Shown: positions 3,548 through 12,733 of the stretch, piece by piece
Layout: every line of letters starts with the position of its first letter
How positions within the stretch are numbered: position 1 is the stretch's first letter
IMG/VR virus record: IMGVR_UViG_3300032232_001415
Coordinates: 1-64,000 of that record
Source of the DNA: a virus
Taxonomy: Duplodnaviria; Caudoviricetes
Strand: one strand, 5' to 3'
Length of the DNA stretch: 64,000 nt
Program-made: the position numbers and the translations under genes
The notes under the pieces: generated by a model
What the model was told of the DNA's origin: nothing
Database searches by the model: none
The model's input: only the letters and a program-made list of their open reading frames with translations

Positions 3548-3926
3548 GATAAGTGCATCTTTCAAATATACTTGTCCAAATACTGATTGTGGATTTAACT
3601 ATTGGTTATTTTTGAGAGAAGTTCAAACTAAAAACTTCAAAATAGTATGTGATTGCGGAACTATTTTTAAGCCTAAATTAATTAAAAAAATAAAGATAGT
3701 CTACCATGCCTCCGATCCAGTTAAAGAAACACTGGACAAAGCAGAAACGTCTGATAAAATAAGAACCAGCCAAGCCCTAATAAATAGTGCAATAAATACT
3801 ATGGTGGGTTTGGGATACAAAAAACAAGAAGCAAAAGTTTGTATTGAATTAGTGTGTGAATCTGAGATATTTGTTGATCATTTTTTAATTGTTAAAAAAG
3901 CTATATCAAAAATTGGAGGACTATAA
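3510..3926 (+). CDS. Zn-ribbon plus RuvA C-terminal (domain III)-like protein
   Basis: CPNTDC...CDCG, followed by SAINTMVGLGYKKQEAK...IVKKAISKI, which resembles RuvA domain III (A..AL..LGY...EA). Abuts ruvB. Confidence 0.6.
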   Translation: MITKKKKNQKPTEISASFKYTCPNTDCGFNYWLFLREVQTKNFKIVCDCGTIFKPKLIKKIKIVYHASDPVKETLDKAETSDKIRTSQALINSAINTMVGLGYKKQEAKVCIELVCESEIFVDHFLIVKKAISKIGGL

Positions 3927-4831
3927 TGTCTAAGGCTATGCGACCATCATCATTTGATGAAATTATTGGGCAGGATACTGTGATTAAGCGTTTGCGTGTT
4001 TCTGTGGCGGGTTGTAAAAACAGTGGTGGGTCGATGCCTCACGTTTTAATAGACGGCCCTCCTGGCCTTGGAAAGACTACCATAGCAAGTGCCATAGCAA
4101 ACGAGTTGGGAGTGAACCTATACACAACAAACGCAGCGACCATACGAAGTGTAAAAAATATTATGCCATATATTATGGGAATGTCTCCAAGATCAGTTTT
4201 GTTTATTGATGAAATTCACAGATTGCCTAAGATTGTGGAAGAATTTTTATATCCGGTCATGGAAGATTTTGTTCTTAATATCACTGTAAAAGATGATGAA
4301 GATAAAGAGAAACCAGAAAGTATTGATTTGCCAGTATTCACAGTTGTTGGTGCTACAACTAGTGGTGGAAGTTTAAGTCAACCATTTTATGATCGTTTTA
4401 CAATTAAAGAACATCTTTCTTTTTATGATGAGAATGATCTAGCTAAACTAGCAAGGTTGAATTGCGATAAATTAGGAATAGTCATAGATGATTCAGACCT
4501 TTTGGAAGTAGCAAAAAGAAGCAAGGGAACTCCTAGAATTCTTAATGCTAGATTACAATGGTACAAGAACTATAAGTCTTGTTATAATGACAATACAAGT
4601 ATTAATGATATTTTTAATGTTCAGGGAATAGATGAGAATGGATTTGATGTGTATGATAGGATGTACTTAAATATCCTAAAAAAATCTAAAGGCACTCCTC
4701 TTGGTCTAAAATCAATTTCATCAATGACAGGCATCGCTATTGATACTATAGAGAATAGTATTGAGCCATATCTGGCAAGAAAAGGTTATATTCTTAGAAC
4801 TCAAAAGGGGCGAATTATAGGAGACATATGA
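3926..4831 (+). CDS. ruvB: Holliday junction branch-migration AAA+ ATPase RuvB
   Basis: MRPSSFDEIIGQ, GPPGLGKTT, LFIDEIHRL, YPVMEDF, GATT, SKGTPR, IEPYL..GYILRTQKGR. Confidence 0.95.
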   Translation: MSKAMRPSSFDEIIGQDTVIKRLRVSVAGCKNSGGSMPHVLIDGPPGLGKTTIASAIANELGVNLYTTNAATIRSVKNIMPYIMGMSPRSVLFIDEIHRLPKIVEEFLYPVMEDFVLNITVKDDEDKEKPESIDLPVFTVVGATTSGGSLSQPFYDRFTIKEHLSFYDENDLAKLARLNCDKLGIVIDDSDLLEVAKRSKGTPRILNARLQWYKNYKSCYNDNTSINDIFNVQGIDENGFDVYDRMYLNILKKSKGTPLGLKSISSMTGIAIDTIENSIEPYLARKGYILRTQKGRIIGDI

Positions 4832-5154
4832 AAATATTTGGTATAGATCTTAATGTTAAGTCTAAATTTTTTAGATTTGCAACAAGATCACCCAAATGGT
4901 CTACTATAAGAAAAATTCACCTTAAAGATAACCCAAGATGTGCTGCTTGTGGGAGAGATTCCAAATTAGAAGTTCATCATATAGAACCAGTTCATAAAAA
5001 TCCAGATAGAGAATTAGACCCATCTAATTTGATTACATTATGCGATAATCCATGTCACATAGTATTTGGACATCTACTGAACTATAAGAGTTGGAACTCT
5101 GATGTTGTTGAAAATTGTAAACAATATTTAGAAAAAATAAAAAATAGACCATAA
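4828..5154 (+). CDS. HNH endonuclease
   Basis: CAACG..LEVHHI.P...NLITLC...CH. Confidence 0.85.
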   Translation: MKIFGIDLNVKSKFFRFATRSPKWSTIRKIHLKDNPRCAACGRDSKLEVHHIEPVHKNPDRELDPSNLITLCDNPCHIVFGHLLNYKSWNSDVVENCKQYLEKIKNRP

Positions 5155-5158
5155 TATT

Positions 5159-5184
5159 AAGGGACTTTTGTCCCTTTTTTATTT
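5159..5184 (+). terminator. Rho-independent terminator
   Basis: AAGGGAC-TTTT-GTCCCTT followed by a T run. Confidence 0.85.
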
Positions 5185-5191
5185 ATATGGT

Positions 5192-5197
5192 GGTGTA
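5192..5197 (+). promoter_or_regulatory. GGTGTA putative phage-specific promoter motif
   Basis: Directly after a terminator and ~20 nt before an RBS/ATG. Recurs at 6559, 12164 and 24421, and on the minus strand at 45930-45935. Confidence 0.45.
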
Positions 5198-5216
5198 CCT
5201 TATCATAGAGGAAACT

Positions 5217-5531
5217 ATGGAAGATACTATACATATTATATTGATTATATTAATACTATTGAATATAGTATTTTTCTTTTTAGGATATATCATTGGTAAA
5301 TTAACTAATAGTCAGACAACTATTGAGAGTCAGCCAAATTCATTTTTCAAAAAAGATATTAAAGAAAAAAAAGATAAGATAAAAACTAAATTGATAATAG
5401 ATGAAAGTAAATACGTGACTGATATTAAAACTTCTGATATGGAAAAAAAATACGAGAATCTTGGTGAAACAAAAAAAACTAATGAAAATATAGAGTCATC
5501 AATTAACAAACTCAAAAATTTAAAAGGGTAA
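5217..5531 (+). CDS. Single-pass membrane protein with charged cytoplasmic tail
   Basis: Hydrophobic N-terminal helix IHIILIILILLNIVFFFLGYIIG. Start set at ATG 5217 after GAGG. Confidence 0.7.
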   Translation: MEDTIHIILIILILLNIVFFFLGYIIGKLTNSQTTIESQPNSFFKKDIKEKKDKIKTKLIIDESKYVTDIKTSDMEKKYENLGETKKTNENIESSINKLKNLKG

Positions 5532-5535
5532 TATC

Positions 5536-6537
5536 ATGGGTAAAGGATTGGATGTGGGCACAAGTTTTATAGTATTATCTCAAGATTCATCTGATGGAGT
5601 AGTTTATAAAGATTTTAGAGATGCGTTTTATATAATAAAACCTACAACACCAGTAGCTACAAAAATGATTGAGAAAGGATTATCTGGAAAAATATTCATA
5701 AAGGATACTGATGGATCTTTTGTAATACTAGGAAAAGATGCTATTGAAAAAGCAATCGAGAGAAATGATAATGCCAAAAGACCCATGAGCAAAGGGGTTG
5801 TATCCGCCAAAGAAAAGGACGCAAAGCGTGTTCTAGCCTTTATTTTAAAAGAAGTGGCCGGTCAGGCATCAGAACAAAATGAGAAACTCGTATTCTGTGT
5901 TCCTGCACAACCAGTTGATCAAGAAGATGAAGACTTTGATGTTGGATACCATGAAGATGTAGTAAAATCTATTTTAGCAGAATGTGGTTATGATGCTAAG
6001 GCTATTAACGAAGCAGAAGCATTGTGTTATGCAGAACTAGGAGATGAGGATTATACTGGTATAGCAATATCATGTGGGGCCGGAATGACTAATGTTTGCG
6101 TAATGTTAAATGGAGAACCAACTGTAGTATTTAGCACAACTAAATCTGGTGATTGGGTTGATCGTATGAGTGCGGTAGCCACTGGAGAAAAAGATAGTGT
6201 TGTTCAAGCAGAAAAAGAAGGTGGTGGATTTACTATTGGAGAAAGTAATGAAAATCCGGTTTTATCTGCGGTTTCTTCGTATTATGAAAGATTAATTGAC
6301 TATACCACAAAACAGTTAGCATTTGCATTATCTAGTCATAAATCTTTACCAAAATTTAAAAATCCACTAACAATAGTTGTTGCTGGAGGAACGTCTCAGG
6401 CAAAAGGATATATTGATATTTTTACTAAAAAATTATCAGAAAATAACTTTCCTTTACCTGTCAAAATTGTTAAACACGCTAATGATCCACTACATGCGGT
6501 TTCAAAAGGGTGCTTGATAGCAGCAAAAGTTCTTTAA
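5536..6537 (+). CDS. Actin-fold ATPase (MreB/MamK superfamily, volactin-like)
   Basis: Phosphate-1 GLDVGTS, connect-1 INEAEA, phosphate-2 ISCGAGMTN, adenosine VVAGGTS, connect-2 PLHAVSKG. Confidence 0.85.
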   Translation: MGKGLDVGTSFIVLSQDSSDGVVYKDFRDAFYIIKPTTPVATKMIEKGLSGKIFIKDTDGSFVILGKDAIEKAIERNDNAKRPMSKGVVSAKEKDAKRVLAFILKEVAGQASEQNEKLVFCVPAQPVDQEDEDFDVGYHEDVVKSILAECGYDAKAINEAEALCYAELGDEDYTGIAISCGAGMTNVCVMLNGEPTVVFSTTKSGDWVDRMSAVATGEKDSVVQAEKEGGGFTIGESNENPVLSAVSSYYERLIDYTTKQLAFALSSHKSLPKFKNPLTIVVAGGTSQAKGYIDIFTKKLSENNFPLPVKIVKHANDPLHAVSKGCLIAAKVL

Positions 6538-6558
6538 ATCCAATAGTCAGCCATATAT

Positions 6559-6564
6559 GGTGTA
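6559..6564 (+). promoter_or_regulatory. GGTGTA putative phage promoter motif
   Basis: Intergenic, upstream of the GGAGG RBS of the protease gene. Confidence 0.45.
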
Positions 6565-6597
6565 CTAATAATAGCTATTTTATTATTGGAGGTCCAT

Positions 6598-7344
6598 ATG
6601 CTAAAGGACAAAAAGAATATAGTTGTGCTATTACTTATACTGTTAGCAGCATCAGTTTATGGTGGAACTAGAGATCCAGACACATCTGATGAAAAATATA
6701 CAGAATTTGGTAAAAAATTTATATACATATATAAAATATGCGGAACATATGAAAATAATGAAAACTTTTGTGCTTCAGCTGTTGCTATAGACAAAAATCA
6801 TTTATTAACAGCGGCTCATGTTGTTACCGGATCAAGGATATGCAAAATAATAGAAGATGAAAATATATATATAGTAAATAAAATAGTATGTCATAAAGAT
6901 TTTAAGAAAGAAAATTTTGGTTTCTACGATATAGCAATACTGAGAGTAGAAGAAAATTTAAAAATAGATGGATTCCCTGAACTTTATACTGATTCAGATG
7001 AATTAAATAAACAATGCACAATATCTGGATATGGAATTACTGGAACATTTGAAACTGGAATAATTACATCAGATGGCAAAAGAAGAGCAGGGTCAAATAC
7101 TATAGATAAAATAGAGAACGATTTACTAATATGCTCTCCTTCAAAAGAAAATAAAACTAAATTAGAATTCCTGATAGGGAGCGGAGATAGCGGTGGTGGG
7201 CTTTTTATAGGAAATAAACTAGCCGGAATAAATTCTTGTGTTATGACAATGGATAAAAAAACAAATTCAGATTACGGAGACGAAAGTGGCCATACAAGGA
7301 TAAGTAATCACTATGAATGGATAATAGGTCAACTGCATGAATAG
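6598..7344 (+). CDS. Secreted trypsin-like (S1) serine protease
   Basis: Signal peptide; LTAAHV, DIAIL and GDSGGG triad intact. Start ATG 6598 after GGAGG. Confidence 0.9.
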   Translation: MLKDKKNIVVLLLILLAASVYGGTRDPDTSDEKYTEFGKKFIYIYKICGTYENNENFCASAVAIDKNHLLTAAHVVTGSRICKIIEDENIYIVNKIVCHKDFKKENFGFYDIAILRVEENLKIDGFPELYTDSDELNKQCTISGYGITGTFETGIITSDGKRRAGSNTIDKIENDLLICSPSKENKTKLEFLIGSGDSGGGLFIGNKLAGINSCVMTMDKKTNSDYGDESGHTRISNHYEWIIGQLHE

Positions 7345-12190: not shown

Positions 12191-12733
12191 ATGCCAATAC
12201 CTAATAAAAAATCAAACGAAGATAAACAAAAATTTGTTTCTAGATGCATGGGCAATGAAACAATGAAAAAAGACTACCCCGATGTAAAACAAAGAGTTGC
12301 TATTTGTTTAGGTCAAACAAGAAAAAAGGGTCAGTCTTCTCTTTTGGAAGAAGTTCATGATAATTTACTAGCATCAAATTGTAGTTGGGATGATGATTGG
12401 AATGAATTCATATGGGAGATCGATGCTACTTTTATCTATGATGAAAATGAAAAAATTATAGCAGAAGAAAAAAATGGTAAAAAAGTAAAATTAAATAAAC
12501 CCACAAGAACTCCTAATGGTCCAAAAAAATTTAGTGTTTATGTCAAAAATGATAAGGGCAATATTGTTAAAGTAAATTTTGGTGATCCGAATATGGAAAT
12601 CAAAAGAGACGATCCTGAAAGAAGAAAATCTTATAGAGCCAGACATAATTGTGATAATCCTGGTCCTAAATGGAAAGCAAATTACTGGAGTTGCAAAATG
12701 TGGTCAACACCAAACGTATCAGATCTAACTTAG
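12191..12733 (+). CDS. Modular basic phage protein (possible head/internal protein)
   Basis: N-terminal FVSRCM...YPD..QRVAIC module and C-terminal KVNFGDP...RRKSYRARHNC...ANYWSC module. Confidence 0.55.
   Translation: MPIPNKKSNEDKQKFVSRCMGNETMKKDYPDVKQRVAICLGQTRKKGQSSLLEEVHDNLLASNCSWDDDWNEFIWEIDATFIYDENEKIIAEEKNGKKVKLNKPTRTPNGPKKFSVYVKNDKGNIVKVNFGDPNMEIKRDDPERRKSYRARHNCDNPGPKWKANYWSCKMWSTPNVSDLT

What the first reader, a model, noticed from the sequence alone, without database searches (positions are those of the whole stretch)
5192..6537. Phage-encoded volactin-like actin with a dedicated membrane partner
Seen: after a terminator and a GGTGTA motif there is a two-gene unit: a single-pass membrane protein, then a 333-aa actin-fold ATPase with all five motifs. 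From recollection, not a search, the sequence (MGKGLDVGT, RPMSKG, PAQPVD, YH, GYDAKAINE, ELGDEDYTGIAISCGAGMTNVC, GDWVD, YYERLIDY, HANDPL) is collinear with haloarchaeal volactin rather than MreB, ParM or FtsA. Known: volactin forms membrane-associated dynamic filaments; described phage cytoskeletons are mainly PhuZ tubulin and the actin AlpC with adaptor AlpA. Inference: a membrane-anchored actin system for positioning phage DNA or capsids, or reshaping the host cell.
Basis: partly seen in the sequence, partly recalled or inferred. Interest (0 to 1): 0.8.

Follow-up and report, generated by a model that had tools for sequence, protein, structure and literature searches.

The report
Jumbo-phage volactin actin with membrane adaptor
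An uncultured jumbo phage (relatives have 204-238 kb genomes) carries a true actin of the "volactin" family next to a small membrane-spanning partner that is always gained or lost with it, so the phage probably builds membrane-tethered actin filaments in its host, which no paper I could search describes.

Summary
ORF 5536-6537 (333 aa) matches Pfam Volactin PF25216 full length (E 8e-65, 220 bits; MreB 28 bits). It folds confidently as an actin (pLDDT 96.9) closest to MamK, BeeR, MreB and F-actin. ORF 5217-5531 is a single-pass membrane protein, N terminus outside and a conserved roughly 45-residue tail inside.

The pair behaves as one unit:
- The partner is present in 78 of 80 actin-anchored loci.
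- In RuvB-anchored loci, 42 have both genes, 14 have neither and none has one alone.
- Complete ~155-kb relatives lack both, leaving RuvB and the trypsin gene adjacent.
- The actin is the most conserved gene locally (85% identity against 73% for RuvB and 47% for the partner; dN/dS 0.06).

Five protein clusters fuse a secreted trypsin to the partner's membrane helix and tail, which fixes the topology. A short C-terminal KLxxL(K/R) helix also ends the unrelated upstream partners of volactins in other phages and in planctomycetes.

Filament formation and tail-actin binding are inferred, not shown, and the cellular purpose is unknown. This scan has noted the same module before on other DNA (154 notes). 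I rate it a new variant of a known kind.

The parts
5159..5186 (+). Intrinsic-terminator-like hairpin plus T run after the HNH gene
   Evidence: 7-bp stem, 4 GC pairs, then TTTTATTTAT. Equivalent hairpins lie upstream of the partner gene in 13 of 50 unique related loci.
5192..5197 (+). GGTGTA promoter-like motif, 25 nt before the partner start codon
   Evidence: not enriched overall, but positionally conserved (GGTGTAA at -20 to -30) wherever relatives have an intergenic spacer. A second copy lies at 6559-6564, 27 nt before the trypsin ORF.
5217..5531 (+). Adaptor gene: 104-aa bitopic membrane protein (short acidic N terminus outside, TM at about residues 5-27, variable linker, conserved cytoplasmic tail)
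   Evidence: AGAGGA ribosome-binding site at 5207-5212. Profile present in 78 of 80 actin loci. Pfam, PHROGs, NCBIfam and PADLOC give no meaningful hit.
5394..5528 (+). Conserved cytoplasmic tail of the adaptor (residues about 60-104: ID..K.V.DI.T...EKKY..LG..K.S.E.I..S.NKLKN.K), the proposed actin-docking element
   Evidence: Alignments. pLDDT 87-90 with a strand plus helix in the read-through model of relative L004. The KLxxL(K/R) end is shared with other lineages' partners.
5536..6537 (+). Volactin-family actin-fold ATPase, 333 aa
   Evidence: Pfam PF25216 E 7.8e-65. AF2 pLDDT 96.9. VIA-align: MamK Z 28.2, BeeR 27.7, MreB 26.6. All family-invariant residues present. dN/dS 0.063.
6586..7344 (+). 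Secreted trypsin-like serine protease. A frequent neighbour, fused to the adaptor in some relatives; a core gene that does not depend on the actin
   Evidence: Pfam Trypsin E 1.9e-14. His, Asp and Ser motifs intact. Found in 55 of 80 actin-anchored loci, mostly within about 2 kb downstream of the actin. Fusions P0271-P0275. Present in actin-less genomes.
3926..4831 (+). RuvB, the conserved upstream anchor of the module
   Evidence: Pfam RuvB_N, RuvB_C. Precedes the partner gene in 75 of 80 loci.
4828..5154 (+). HNH homing endonuclease, a mobile insert whose position varies between relatives
   Evidence: Pfam HNH. It lies downstream of the actin in most relatives and upstream here.

Best explanation
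A two-gene accessory module of a jumbo-phage lineage encodes a phage-made, membrane-tethered actin system.

Shown:
- The 333-aa protein is a bona fide member of the volactin family of actin-fold ATPases, with all family-invariant nucleotide-binding residues.
- It is under very strong purifying selection.
- The upstream 104-aa protein is a bitopic inner-membrane protein, N terminus outside and C terminus inside.
- The two genes are gained or lost together.

Inferred:
- The actin polymerises with ATP into dynamic filaments, as VolA does in Haloferax.
- The adaptor's conserved cytoplasmic tail (a short strand plus a terminal KLKNLK helix) docks on actin protomers, so filaments are nucleated at or anchored to the membrane.
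- The N-terminal half of the adaptor is a swappable module. It is a bare membrane anchor here and a periplasmic trypsin in some relatives. Other phages and planctomycetes have coiled-coil or other domains instead.

Most likely purpose (speculative): to organise the infected cell, by positioning replicating DNA or assembling particles or by remodelling cell shape and envelope. The module sits among replication and recombination genes and usually follows RuvB directly.
For: Family membership:
- Pfam Volactin 219.9 bits, full length.
- Separated from true MreBs with 100% support; the jumbo-phage clade itself has 98%.
- Invariant D6 G8 T9, R82 P83, H139, E159, G181 G183, G205 D206 D209, K227, G284 G285 and G325, plus near-invariant (at least 90%) S179, E228 and T286, are all present.

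Fold:
- pLDDT 96.9, pTM 0.93.
- The 50 rows listed by VIA-align are MamK, BeeR, MreB, actins, actin-related proteins and models of complexes that contain them, at Z 24.8-28.2.
- VolA forms dynamic filaments that touch the membrane by their tips (PMC10869688).

Selection:
- Actin 84.7% median identity against RuvB 73.3% and partner 46.5% on the same loci; dN/dS 0.063.
- Inteins sit at or just after the phosphate-2 motif in relatives.

Pairing:
- Partner present in 78 of 80 loci, usually 1-7 nt upstream.
- RuvB-anchored test: 42 both, 14 neither, 0 discordant.
- Complete genomes either have one copy of each, adjacent, or neither.
- Where absent, RuvB-(HNH)-trypsin remain in the same order at the same site, directly adjacent in L257.

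Topology: five clusters fuse signal peptide, active trypsin, TM and tail.

Tail as docking element:
- The tail is the only conserved part of the adaptor.
- In a natural in-frame read-through model it scores pLDDT 87-90 with strand 84-88 and helix 93-99, while the linker scores 42-54.
- Upstream partners of volactins in other phages and in planctomycetes differ at the N terminus but end in the same KLxxL(K/R) helix.
- Motif [KR]L[KRQ].[LIMAF] in the last 18 residues: 83 of 122 upstream ORFs against 16 of 2665 other ORFs.
- hhalign aligns only tail to tail (P 0.019).
- A planctomycete partner's N-terminal domain occurs fused to the actin in P0147 (E 2e-8).

No tubulin or PhuZ was found in four complete genomes of the clade.
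Against: - No polymerisation or binding data exist for any phage member.
- The fold tool returns no contacts or PAE and no partner-alone control was possible, so the high tail pLDDT does not prove docking.
- Tail similarity to planctomycete partners is not significant by HMM (E 2.4 or worse) and hhalign probability is only 2.5%.
- The motif regex was written after seeing the data.
- The phosphate-2 Asp of classic actins is Ser here (SCGAG). This is family-wide, including lineages whose member polymerises.
- The module is dispensable: complete ~155-kb relatives lack it.
- The trypsin persists without it, so a protease-positioning role is at most facultative.
- The huge phages LR745208 and LR756511 have no membrane partner upstream.
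Confidence: 0.55

Rival explanations
1. A static membrane scaffold like PilM-PilN or FtsA-FtsN. The actin-fold ATPase binds the cytoplasmic peptide of a bitopic membrane protein and acts as an assembly platform or switch for an envelope process. It would not be a dynamic cytomotive filament.
For: The architecture (actin-fold protein plus a short cytoplasmic peptide of a single-pass protein) matches PilM:PilN, which appears in the fold and profile hits (5eou, 5eoy, 3jc8). FtsA is also hit. The links to periplasmic hydrolases fit an envelope-machine role: trypsin fusions and a membrane amidase next to Desulfobacterota volactins.
Against: PilM and FtsA matches are much weaker (profile E 0.03-4e-6, TM 0.52-0.59) than MamK, BeeR and MreB (E 2.7e-16 to 3e-8, TM up to 0.75, Z 26-28). 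The model has the MreB/MamK-type domain layout. The only characterised family member forms dynamic filaments.
Confidence: 0.17
2. A ParM/AlpC-like DNA-positioning or segregation actin, in which the filament moves phage genomes and the upstream protein plays the part of the ParR/AlpA adaptor.
For: Phage and plasmid actins with an upstream adaptor are the known precedent (AlpC/AlpA, PMC4446434 and PMC5539076). The module lies among replication and recombination genes next to RuvB. Some bacterial volactins carry ParB-type HTH extensions (P0143).
Against: The adaptor here is a membrane protein with no DNA-binding domain in any library. No ParM hit appeared in the sequence or fold searches. The genomes have direct terminal repeats, and I did not look for plasmid-prophage or lysogeny genes.
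Confidence: 0.08
3. The two genes are inherited together but do not touch. The actin acts on its own, for example by co-polymerising with or poisoning the host's MreB to change cell shape, and the small membrane protein has a separate role such as superinfection exclusion or lysis timing.
For: Direct binding is unproven. The pair can be separated by 0.6-5 kb inserts and both genes persist (GIY-YIG in L065, L073, L077 and L079; a cassette in L007-L009). The adaptor evolves much faster than the actin.
Against: Strict co-occurrence: 42 both, 14 neither, 0 discordant. The conserved part of the adaptor is exactly its cytoplasmic tail. The same tail motif ends otherwise unrelated upstream partners in other lineages. 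Partner-actin gene fusion exists in bacteria.
Confidence: 0.12

Closest known systems
Volactin (VolA, HVO_2015) of Haloferax volcanii with its neighbour HVO_2016 (CdpA-like membrane protein); Pfam PF25216
   Same: Same Pfam family, full length. VolA forms dynamic filaments anchored to the membrane by their tips (PMC10869688). Its gene lies next to a protein built as N-terminal membrane domain, disordered linker and small cytoplasmic C-terminal domain (PMC12126565). The phage adaptor has the same layout.
   Different: Identity to the sampled cellular members (Planctomycetota, Desulfobacterota) is 31-37%; VolA itself was not compared. The phage adaptor has one TM, not four, and shows no detectable sequence similarity to any Pfam family. 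The host is presumably a Gram-negative bacterium and the context is viral. VolA's role in disk shape need not transfer.
MamK (with MamJ/MamY) and BeeR bacterial actins
   Same: The best solved-structure relatives: MamK profile E 2.7e-16, Z 28.2, rmsd 2.9 A over 291 residues; BeeR Z 27.7. Both are filament formers, and MamK is tied to membrane organelles through adaptors.
   Different: Not a member. NCBIfam MamK scores 30.7 bits against a cut-off of 400, and BeeR 34.3 against 530. The adaptors are unrelated.
MreB-RodZ
   Same: A cytoplasmic actin coupled through a bitopic adaptor to periplasmic enzymes. The trypsin-TM-tail fusions give the same inside-outside logic.
   Different: RodZ has the opposite orientation (N terminus inside, HTH binds MreB). 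Pfam MreB_Mbl scores only 27.7 bits over a partial stretch. In the tree, true MreBs of volactin-bearing bacteria form a distant outgroup.
AlpC-AlpA of Corynebacterium prophage CGP3 and ParM-ParR
   Same: An actin encoded by a phage or mobile element with a dedicated adaptor gene just upstream. ParR binds ParM through a short C-terminal helix (own knowledge), as proposed here.
   Different: Those adaptors bind DNA, whereas this one is a membrane protein. They belong to different actin families, and no ParM hits were found.
PhuZ tubulin spindle of nucleus-forming jumbo phages
   Same: A jumbo-phage-encoded cytoskeletal NTPase (PMC8314001).
   Different: It has the tubulin fold. No Pfam Tubulin match was found in four complete genomes of this clade.

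Membership tests
Volactin (Pfam PF25216) | Score above the curated gathering threshold, over the full length | tested here: met
   219.9 bits against a cut-off of 35; residues 1-330 on profile positions 1-321 of 321. Relatives in complete genomes score 203-216 bits.
Volactin (Pfam PF25216) | Family-invariant residues, including the atypical phosphate-2 S-x-G-A-G | tested here: met
   All 17 invariant and the near-invariant columns of a 51-sequence family alignment are present in the window protein.
Volactin (Pfam PF25216) | Groups with family members apart from MreB in a tree | tested here: met
   The family is split from 5 true MreBs with SH-aLRT 100. The window lies in a 98% clade, sister to P0121. 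It was a quick search, and H. volcanii VolA itself was not among the rows.
Volactin (Pfam PF25216) | Forms dynamic filaments in vivo | not testable with these tools
   Known only for VolA (PMC10869688).
Volactin (Pfam PF25216) | Adjacent membrane partner homologous to the CdpA-like HVO_2016 | tested here: inconclusive
   The layout is analogous (TM, linker, small cytoplasmic domain), but the Pfam scan of the adaptor gives no family at E 0.1 or better except a chance-level Flp1_like hit. The HVO_2016 sequence was not obtainable for a profile comparison.
MreB/Mbl | Full-length match above family cut-offs | tested here: not met
   Pfam 27.7 bits on residues 59-209 only. TIGR00904 scores 19 bits against a cut-off of 366.
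MamK, BeeR, salactin (NCBIfam) | Score above the curated cut-off | tested here: not met
   MamK 30.7 against 400, BeeR 34.3 against 530, salactin 30.3 against 400.
ParM/AlpC-type segregation system | DNA-binding adaptor and centromere next to the actin | tested here: not met
   The adaptor is a membrane protein with no DNA-binding domain hit. Centromere repeats were not searched systematically.
Actin superfamily fold (ASKHA, filament-forming branch) | Four-subdomain actin fold with the nucleotide cleft | tested here: met
   AF2 pLDDT 96.9. VIA-align Z 24.8-28.2 to MamK, BeeR, MreB and F-actin over about 280-296 residues.

The most novel reading that the evidence does not exclude
Volactin-family actins use a universal plug-in system across phages, planctomycetes and probably other bacteria. 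A short C-terminal KLxxL(K/R) helix on otherwise unrelated, modular adaptor proteins docks cargo onto the filament. Jumbo phages would have captured this system to build a virus-encoded cytoskeleton anchored in the host inner membrane. In some lineages it would be wired directly to a periplasmic protease, giving a viral counterpart of the MreB-RodZ inside-outside coupling.
Probability: 0.3. Interest if true: 0.8.

Novelty: new variant of a known kind. Interest (0 to 1): 0.66.

Why it matters
Known phage cytoskeletons are the PhuZ tubulin spindle and a few ParM-like actins that move DNA. This is a different actin family. It is carried by at least several hundred uncultured phage contigs (451 relatives of this clade alone in IMG/VR). 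It is more conserved than the phage's RuvB motor and is paired with a membrane anchor rather than a DNA-binding adaptor.

If it polymerises, it would be a phage-built, membrane-tethered actin cytoskeleton, and I found no paper describing one. It would also give a small, tractable two-protein system (333 aa plus a roughly 45-aa tail) for studying how volactin filaments, barely characterised even in archaea, are nucleated and anchored.

The clean presence/absence polymorphism among related complete genomes offers a natural experiment on what the module contributes.

Tried and rejected
- Megablast of 25 kb of the window against GenBank phages gave no match. tblastn of the actin found only two unannotated huge phages at 33% identity.
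- No whole genome is held for the window.
A scan of IMG/VR with them returned only this clade or nothing useful.
- Alignment-based scans of genome contigs failed twice for lack of a conserved block. The scan that worked used three sequences I had guessed to be haloarchaeal; they proved planctomycete. H. volcanii VolA and HVO_2016 were therefore never obtained.
- The phage adaptor HMM, full or tail-only, found nothing significant in the planctomycete, Desulfobacterota or huge-phage loci.
- My first tail regex missed the jumbo clade because of a register error. It was replaced.
- GGTGTA as a general window-wide motif was rejected.
- BFVD fold search returned only Hsp70s and distant actin-fold proteins, with no viral volactin model.
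- PADLOC gave no defence-system match for the actin or the adaptor.
- The idea that the filament exists to position the trypsin was weakened, because the protease is kept in genomes without the module and can lie 17 kb away.
- T4-type capsid Pfam Gp23 matched nothing anywhere, controls included, so it is uninformative.
- The host was not identified.
Full report
WHAT IS THERE. The window is AT-rich (about 30% G+C), with nearly all genes on one strand. It encodes rIIB, a DnaB-type helicase, a split family-B-like DNA polymerase and ribonucleotide reductase, plus RuvB and an HNH endonuclease. No whole genome is held. The actin protein lies on contigs of up to 226 kb. Close relatives in IMG/VR include complete genomes of 204,625 and 237,915 bp with direct terminal repeats, each with a single copy. 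It is therefore a jumbo phage.

At the stated place I find, in order:
- a terminator-like hairpin at 5159-5176 plus a T run;
- GGTGTA at 5192-5197 and an AGAGGA ribosome-binding site;
- ORF 5217-5531 (104 aa);

THE ACTIN.
- Family: Pfam Volactin PF25216 matches end to end (E 7.8e-65, 219.9 bits, cut-off 35). MreB_Mbl reaches only 27.7 bits on a fragment. NCBIfam models for BeeR, MamK, salactin and MreB all score 19-34 bits against cut-offs of 365-530.
- Family size: an exhaustive search of 1.84 billion representatives gives 941 clusters at E 1e-3 or better and 275 at 1e-30 or better.
- Invariant residues: a 51-member alignment shows the family invariants and near-invariants (D6 G8 T9; R82 P83; H139; E159; S179-x-G181-x-G183; G205 D206 D209; K227 E228; G284 G285 T286; G325). 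All are present here. The Ser in place of the classic phosphate-2 Asp is a family trait, not a defect of this copy.
- Fold: AlphaFold2 gives pLDDT 96.9 and pTM 0.93.
- Solved relatives by profile: MamK (E 2.7e-16), BeeR 8r2n (1.6e-10), MreB (about 3e-8) and FtsA.
- Solved relatives by structure: MamK Z 28.2 (rmsd 2.9 A, 291 residues), BeeR 27.7, MreB 26.6, F-actin 25.6. The 50 rows listed are MamK, BeeR, MreB, actins, actin-related proteins and models of complexes that contain them.
- Tree: rooted on true MreBs from volactin-bearing bacteria, the family separates with 100% support. The jumbo clade is monophyletic (98%). The two GenBank huge phages fall in two other clades and planctomycetes in a fourth, so phage volactins have several origins.
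- Selection: against the window, median identity is 84.7% for the actin, 73.3% for RuvB and 46.5% for the partner on the same 75 loci. Pairwise dN/dS is 0.063.
- Inteins: in relatives such as P0122, P0131 and P0150, an intein with a LAGLIDADG endonuclease interrupts the protein at or just after the phosphate-2 motif. This is the kind of site inteins favour in indispensable motifs.

THE PARTNER. The 104-aa protein has four parts:
- a short acidic N terminus;
- one hydrophobic helix followed by Gly-Lys or Gly-Arg;
- a variable linker with a loosely kept S-F-F;
- a conserved tail of roughly 45 residues, ID..K.V.DI.T...EKKY..LG..K.S.E.I..S.NKLKN.K(R/G).

No library recognises it. The positive-inside rule puts the tail in the cytoplasm, and nature confirms this. 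A search for longer forms found five clusters (P0271-P0275, 365-382 aa). At least 47 member sequences belong to them, on contigs of up to 189 kb. In these proteins a signal peptide and a trypsin domain with intact His, Asp and Ser motifs are fused to the same membrane helix and tail, directly upstream of the actin.

ARE THEY A PAIR?
- Anchoring on the actin, 78 of 80 loci carry the partner, usually 1-7 nt upstream.
- The exceptions to adjacency are informative. A GIY-YIG endonuclease sits between the two genes in four loci. A 5-kb opposite-strand cassette does so in three.
- Anchoring independently on RuvB, loci with at least 3 kb of room split into 42 with both genes, 14 with neither and none with only one.
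- Two relatives rated 100% complete (153.6 and 157.7 kb) lack both genes anywhere. Complete 204-238 kb genomes have one adjacent copy of each.
- In the actin-less loci the same RuvB-(HNH)-trypsin order is kept, directly adjacent in L257, so the pair is a clean two-gene indel.

It also shows that the module is accessory rather than core.

DOES THE TAIL TOUCH THE ACTIN? This is inferred. Four lines of evidence bear on it.
1. The tail is the only conserved part of a fast-evolving protein.
2. In 19 loci the partner and actin are in frame, so I folded the natural read-through of L004 (stop read as Gly) with a mixed alignment. The membrane helix scores pLDDT 90-98, the linker 42-54 and the actin 87-98 per ten-residue block. 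Tail residues 71-90 score 87-90, with a strand at 84-88 and a helix at 93-99.
3. In other lineages the gene just upstream of the volactin differs at its N terminus but ends alike.
   - Phages at 36-59% actin identity have 113-280-aa partners ending ...KVAKLRNILG...KVNKLKSLIG and similar. One of them has an N-terminal TM.
   - Planctomycete partners of 218-560 aa end ...DKLAKLRxA or ...LNKLKAF.
   - The motif [KR]L[KRQ].[LIMAF] occurs in the last 18 residues of 83 of 122 unique upstream ORFs, against 16 of 2665 other ORFs. In other phages it is 6 of 14 against 5 of 285; in planctomycetes, 6 of 11 against 2 of 305.
   - The regex was written after looking at the data, and most 'misses' carry KLAQLKK-type variants.
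   - hhalign of the two partner alignments aligns only tail to tail, in register, with P 0.019 but probability 2.5%. HMM searches are not significant.
4. The N-terminal domain of a planctomycete partner occurs fused in front of the actin in P0147 (E 2e-8). This is a Rosetta-stone link for the bacterial system.

CONTEXT AND TIMING.
- The usual order is mini-RuvA, RuvB, partner, actin, (HNH), trypsin.
- Only 13 of 50 unique upstream regions have the terminator plus GGTGTAA arrangement seen here, with the motif 20-30 nt before the start codon. In the rest the partner gene abuts RuvB.
- The module is therefore probably expressed with replication and recombination genes, not as a late unit.
- GGTGTA is not enriched in the window. 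Even so, three plus-strand copies sit 25-27 nt before ORF starts (5217, 6586, 12191).
- No Pfam Tubulin match exists in four complete genomes of the clade.

LINK TO THE ENVELOPE.
- The trypsin gene lies near the actin in 55 of 80 actin-anchored loci and is sometimes fused to the adaptor.
- It is nevertheless a core gene. It is present in genomes without the module and lies 17 kb from the actin in G001. Any coupling is therefore facultative.
- In five Desulfobacterota loci, the gene that starts 30 nt after the volactin encodes a bitopic protein with a periplasmic Amidase_2 domain. Its cytoplasmic N terminus contains KLRF(I/L).
- In Haloferax the neighbour is a four-TM CdpA-like protein (PMC12126565).
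- Pairing of volactins with membrane proteins thus recurs across domains. Together with VolA's shape phenotype, this favours a membrane or envelope-related role.

LITERATURE.
- Volactin papers concern Haloferax only.
- Jumbo-phage reviews and comparative genomics do not mention a phage actin of this kind.
- AlpC/AlpA is the characterised phage actin with a DNA-binding adaptor.
- Saltatorellin, a MamK-like actin of planctomycete relatives that forms filaments in E. coli, may or may not belong to PF25216.

PRIOR NOTES IN THIS SCAN. The same module has been reported many times on other DNA: 154 notes in at least 129 genomes. I re-derived the shared results myself: family assignment, co-conservation, the planctomycete tail, the inteins and the CdpA-like neighbour. 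As far as the summaries I could see go, the following may be new:
- the RuvB-anchored both-or-neither test;
- the actin-less complete relatives;
- the survey of trypsin fusions;
- the finding that the protease is independent of the module.

VERDICT. My confidence differs by claim:
- volactin-family actin on a jumbo phage, about 0.97;
- dedicated, co-inherited membrane partner, about 0.85-0.9;
- tail-mediated membrane tethering of real filaments, about 0.55;
- cellular purpose, open.

Noticed in passing
L069:4848-5996 and L070; proteins P0271-P0275: A secreted trypsin-like protease (signal peptide, intact catalytic His, Asp and Ser motifs) is fused in one ORF to the adaptor's membrane helix and cytoplasmic tail, directly upstream of the actin. 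There are five 90%-identity clusters with at least 47 member sequences.
   Followed up: yes
L257, L261, L256 and 11 other RuvB-anchored loci; complete records G010 (153.6 kb) and G011 (157.7 kb): Related phages (RuvB 71-77% identical) lack both actin and adaptor. They keep the same RuvB-(HNH)-trypsin order at the same site (directly adjacent in L257), which is a clean two-gene presence/absence polymorphism.
   Followed up: yes
L134:4996-6360, and the same position in L131-L133 and L135: In Desulfobacterota, the gene starting 30 nt after the volactin encodes a bitopic membrane protein with a periplasmic N-acetylmuramoyl-L-alanine amidase domain. Its cytoplasmic N terminus contains KLRF(I/L), which resembles the docking motif.
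   Followed up: partly
P0122, P0131, P0150 (695-716 aa): Volactin genes interrupted at or just after the phosphate-2 motif by an intein with a LAGLIDADG homing endonuclease.
   Followed up: partly
L065, L073, L077, L079 (about 0.6 kb) and L007-L009 (about 5 kb) between adaptor and actin: Mobile inserts split the pair. One is a GIY-YIG homing endonuclease. The other is a cassette of opposite-strand genes that look like sugar-modification or methyltransferase genes. Both flanking genes stay intact.
   Followed up: partly
window 4828-5154, compared with the HNH position in L010, L017, L026 and others: The HNH endonuclease sits upstream of the adaptor in the window but just downstream of the actin in most relatives, so it is a roving homing element.
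   Followed up: partly
L119:3992-5146 and 5217-6770; L130:3977-5032 and 5111-6202; P0126, P0136, P0139: Planctomycetes often carry two volactin paralogues in tandem, and some proteins are tandem double actins of about 730 aa. The second L119 copy has an N-terminal zinc-ribbon extension.
   Followed up: no
P0143, P0145, P0169, P0177, P0182, P0193; P0163: Bacterial volactins have N-terminal ParB-type HTH extensions. One 1160-aa protein fuses a volactin to Wzz/GNVR chain-length-determinant and ParA/MinD-like domains.
   Followed up: no
L069:7002-7928 and L069:4077-4451: In the fusion-type loci the actin is followed by a subtilisin-like S8 protease. An exported thioredoxin (signal peptide, WCPAC) lies between RuvB and the HNH gene that precedes the trypsin-adaptor fusion.
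   Followed up: no
window 5192, 6559, 12164: Three GGTGTA copies lie 25-27 nt before ORF starts (adaptor, trypsin, ORF 12191-12733). This may be a phage-specific promoter element used by a small gene set.
   Followed up: partly
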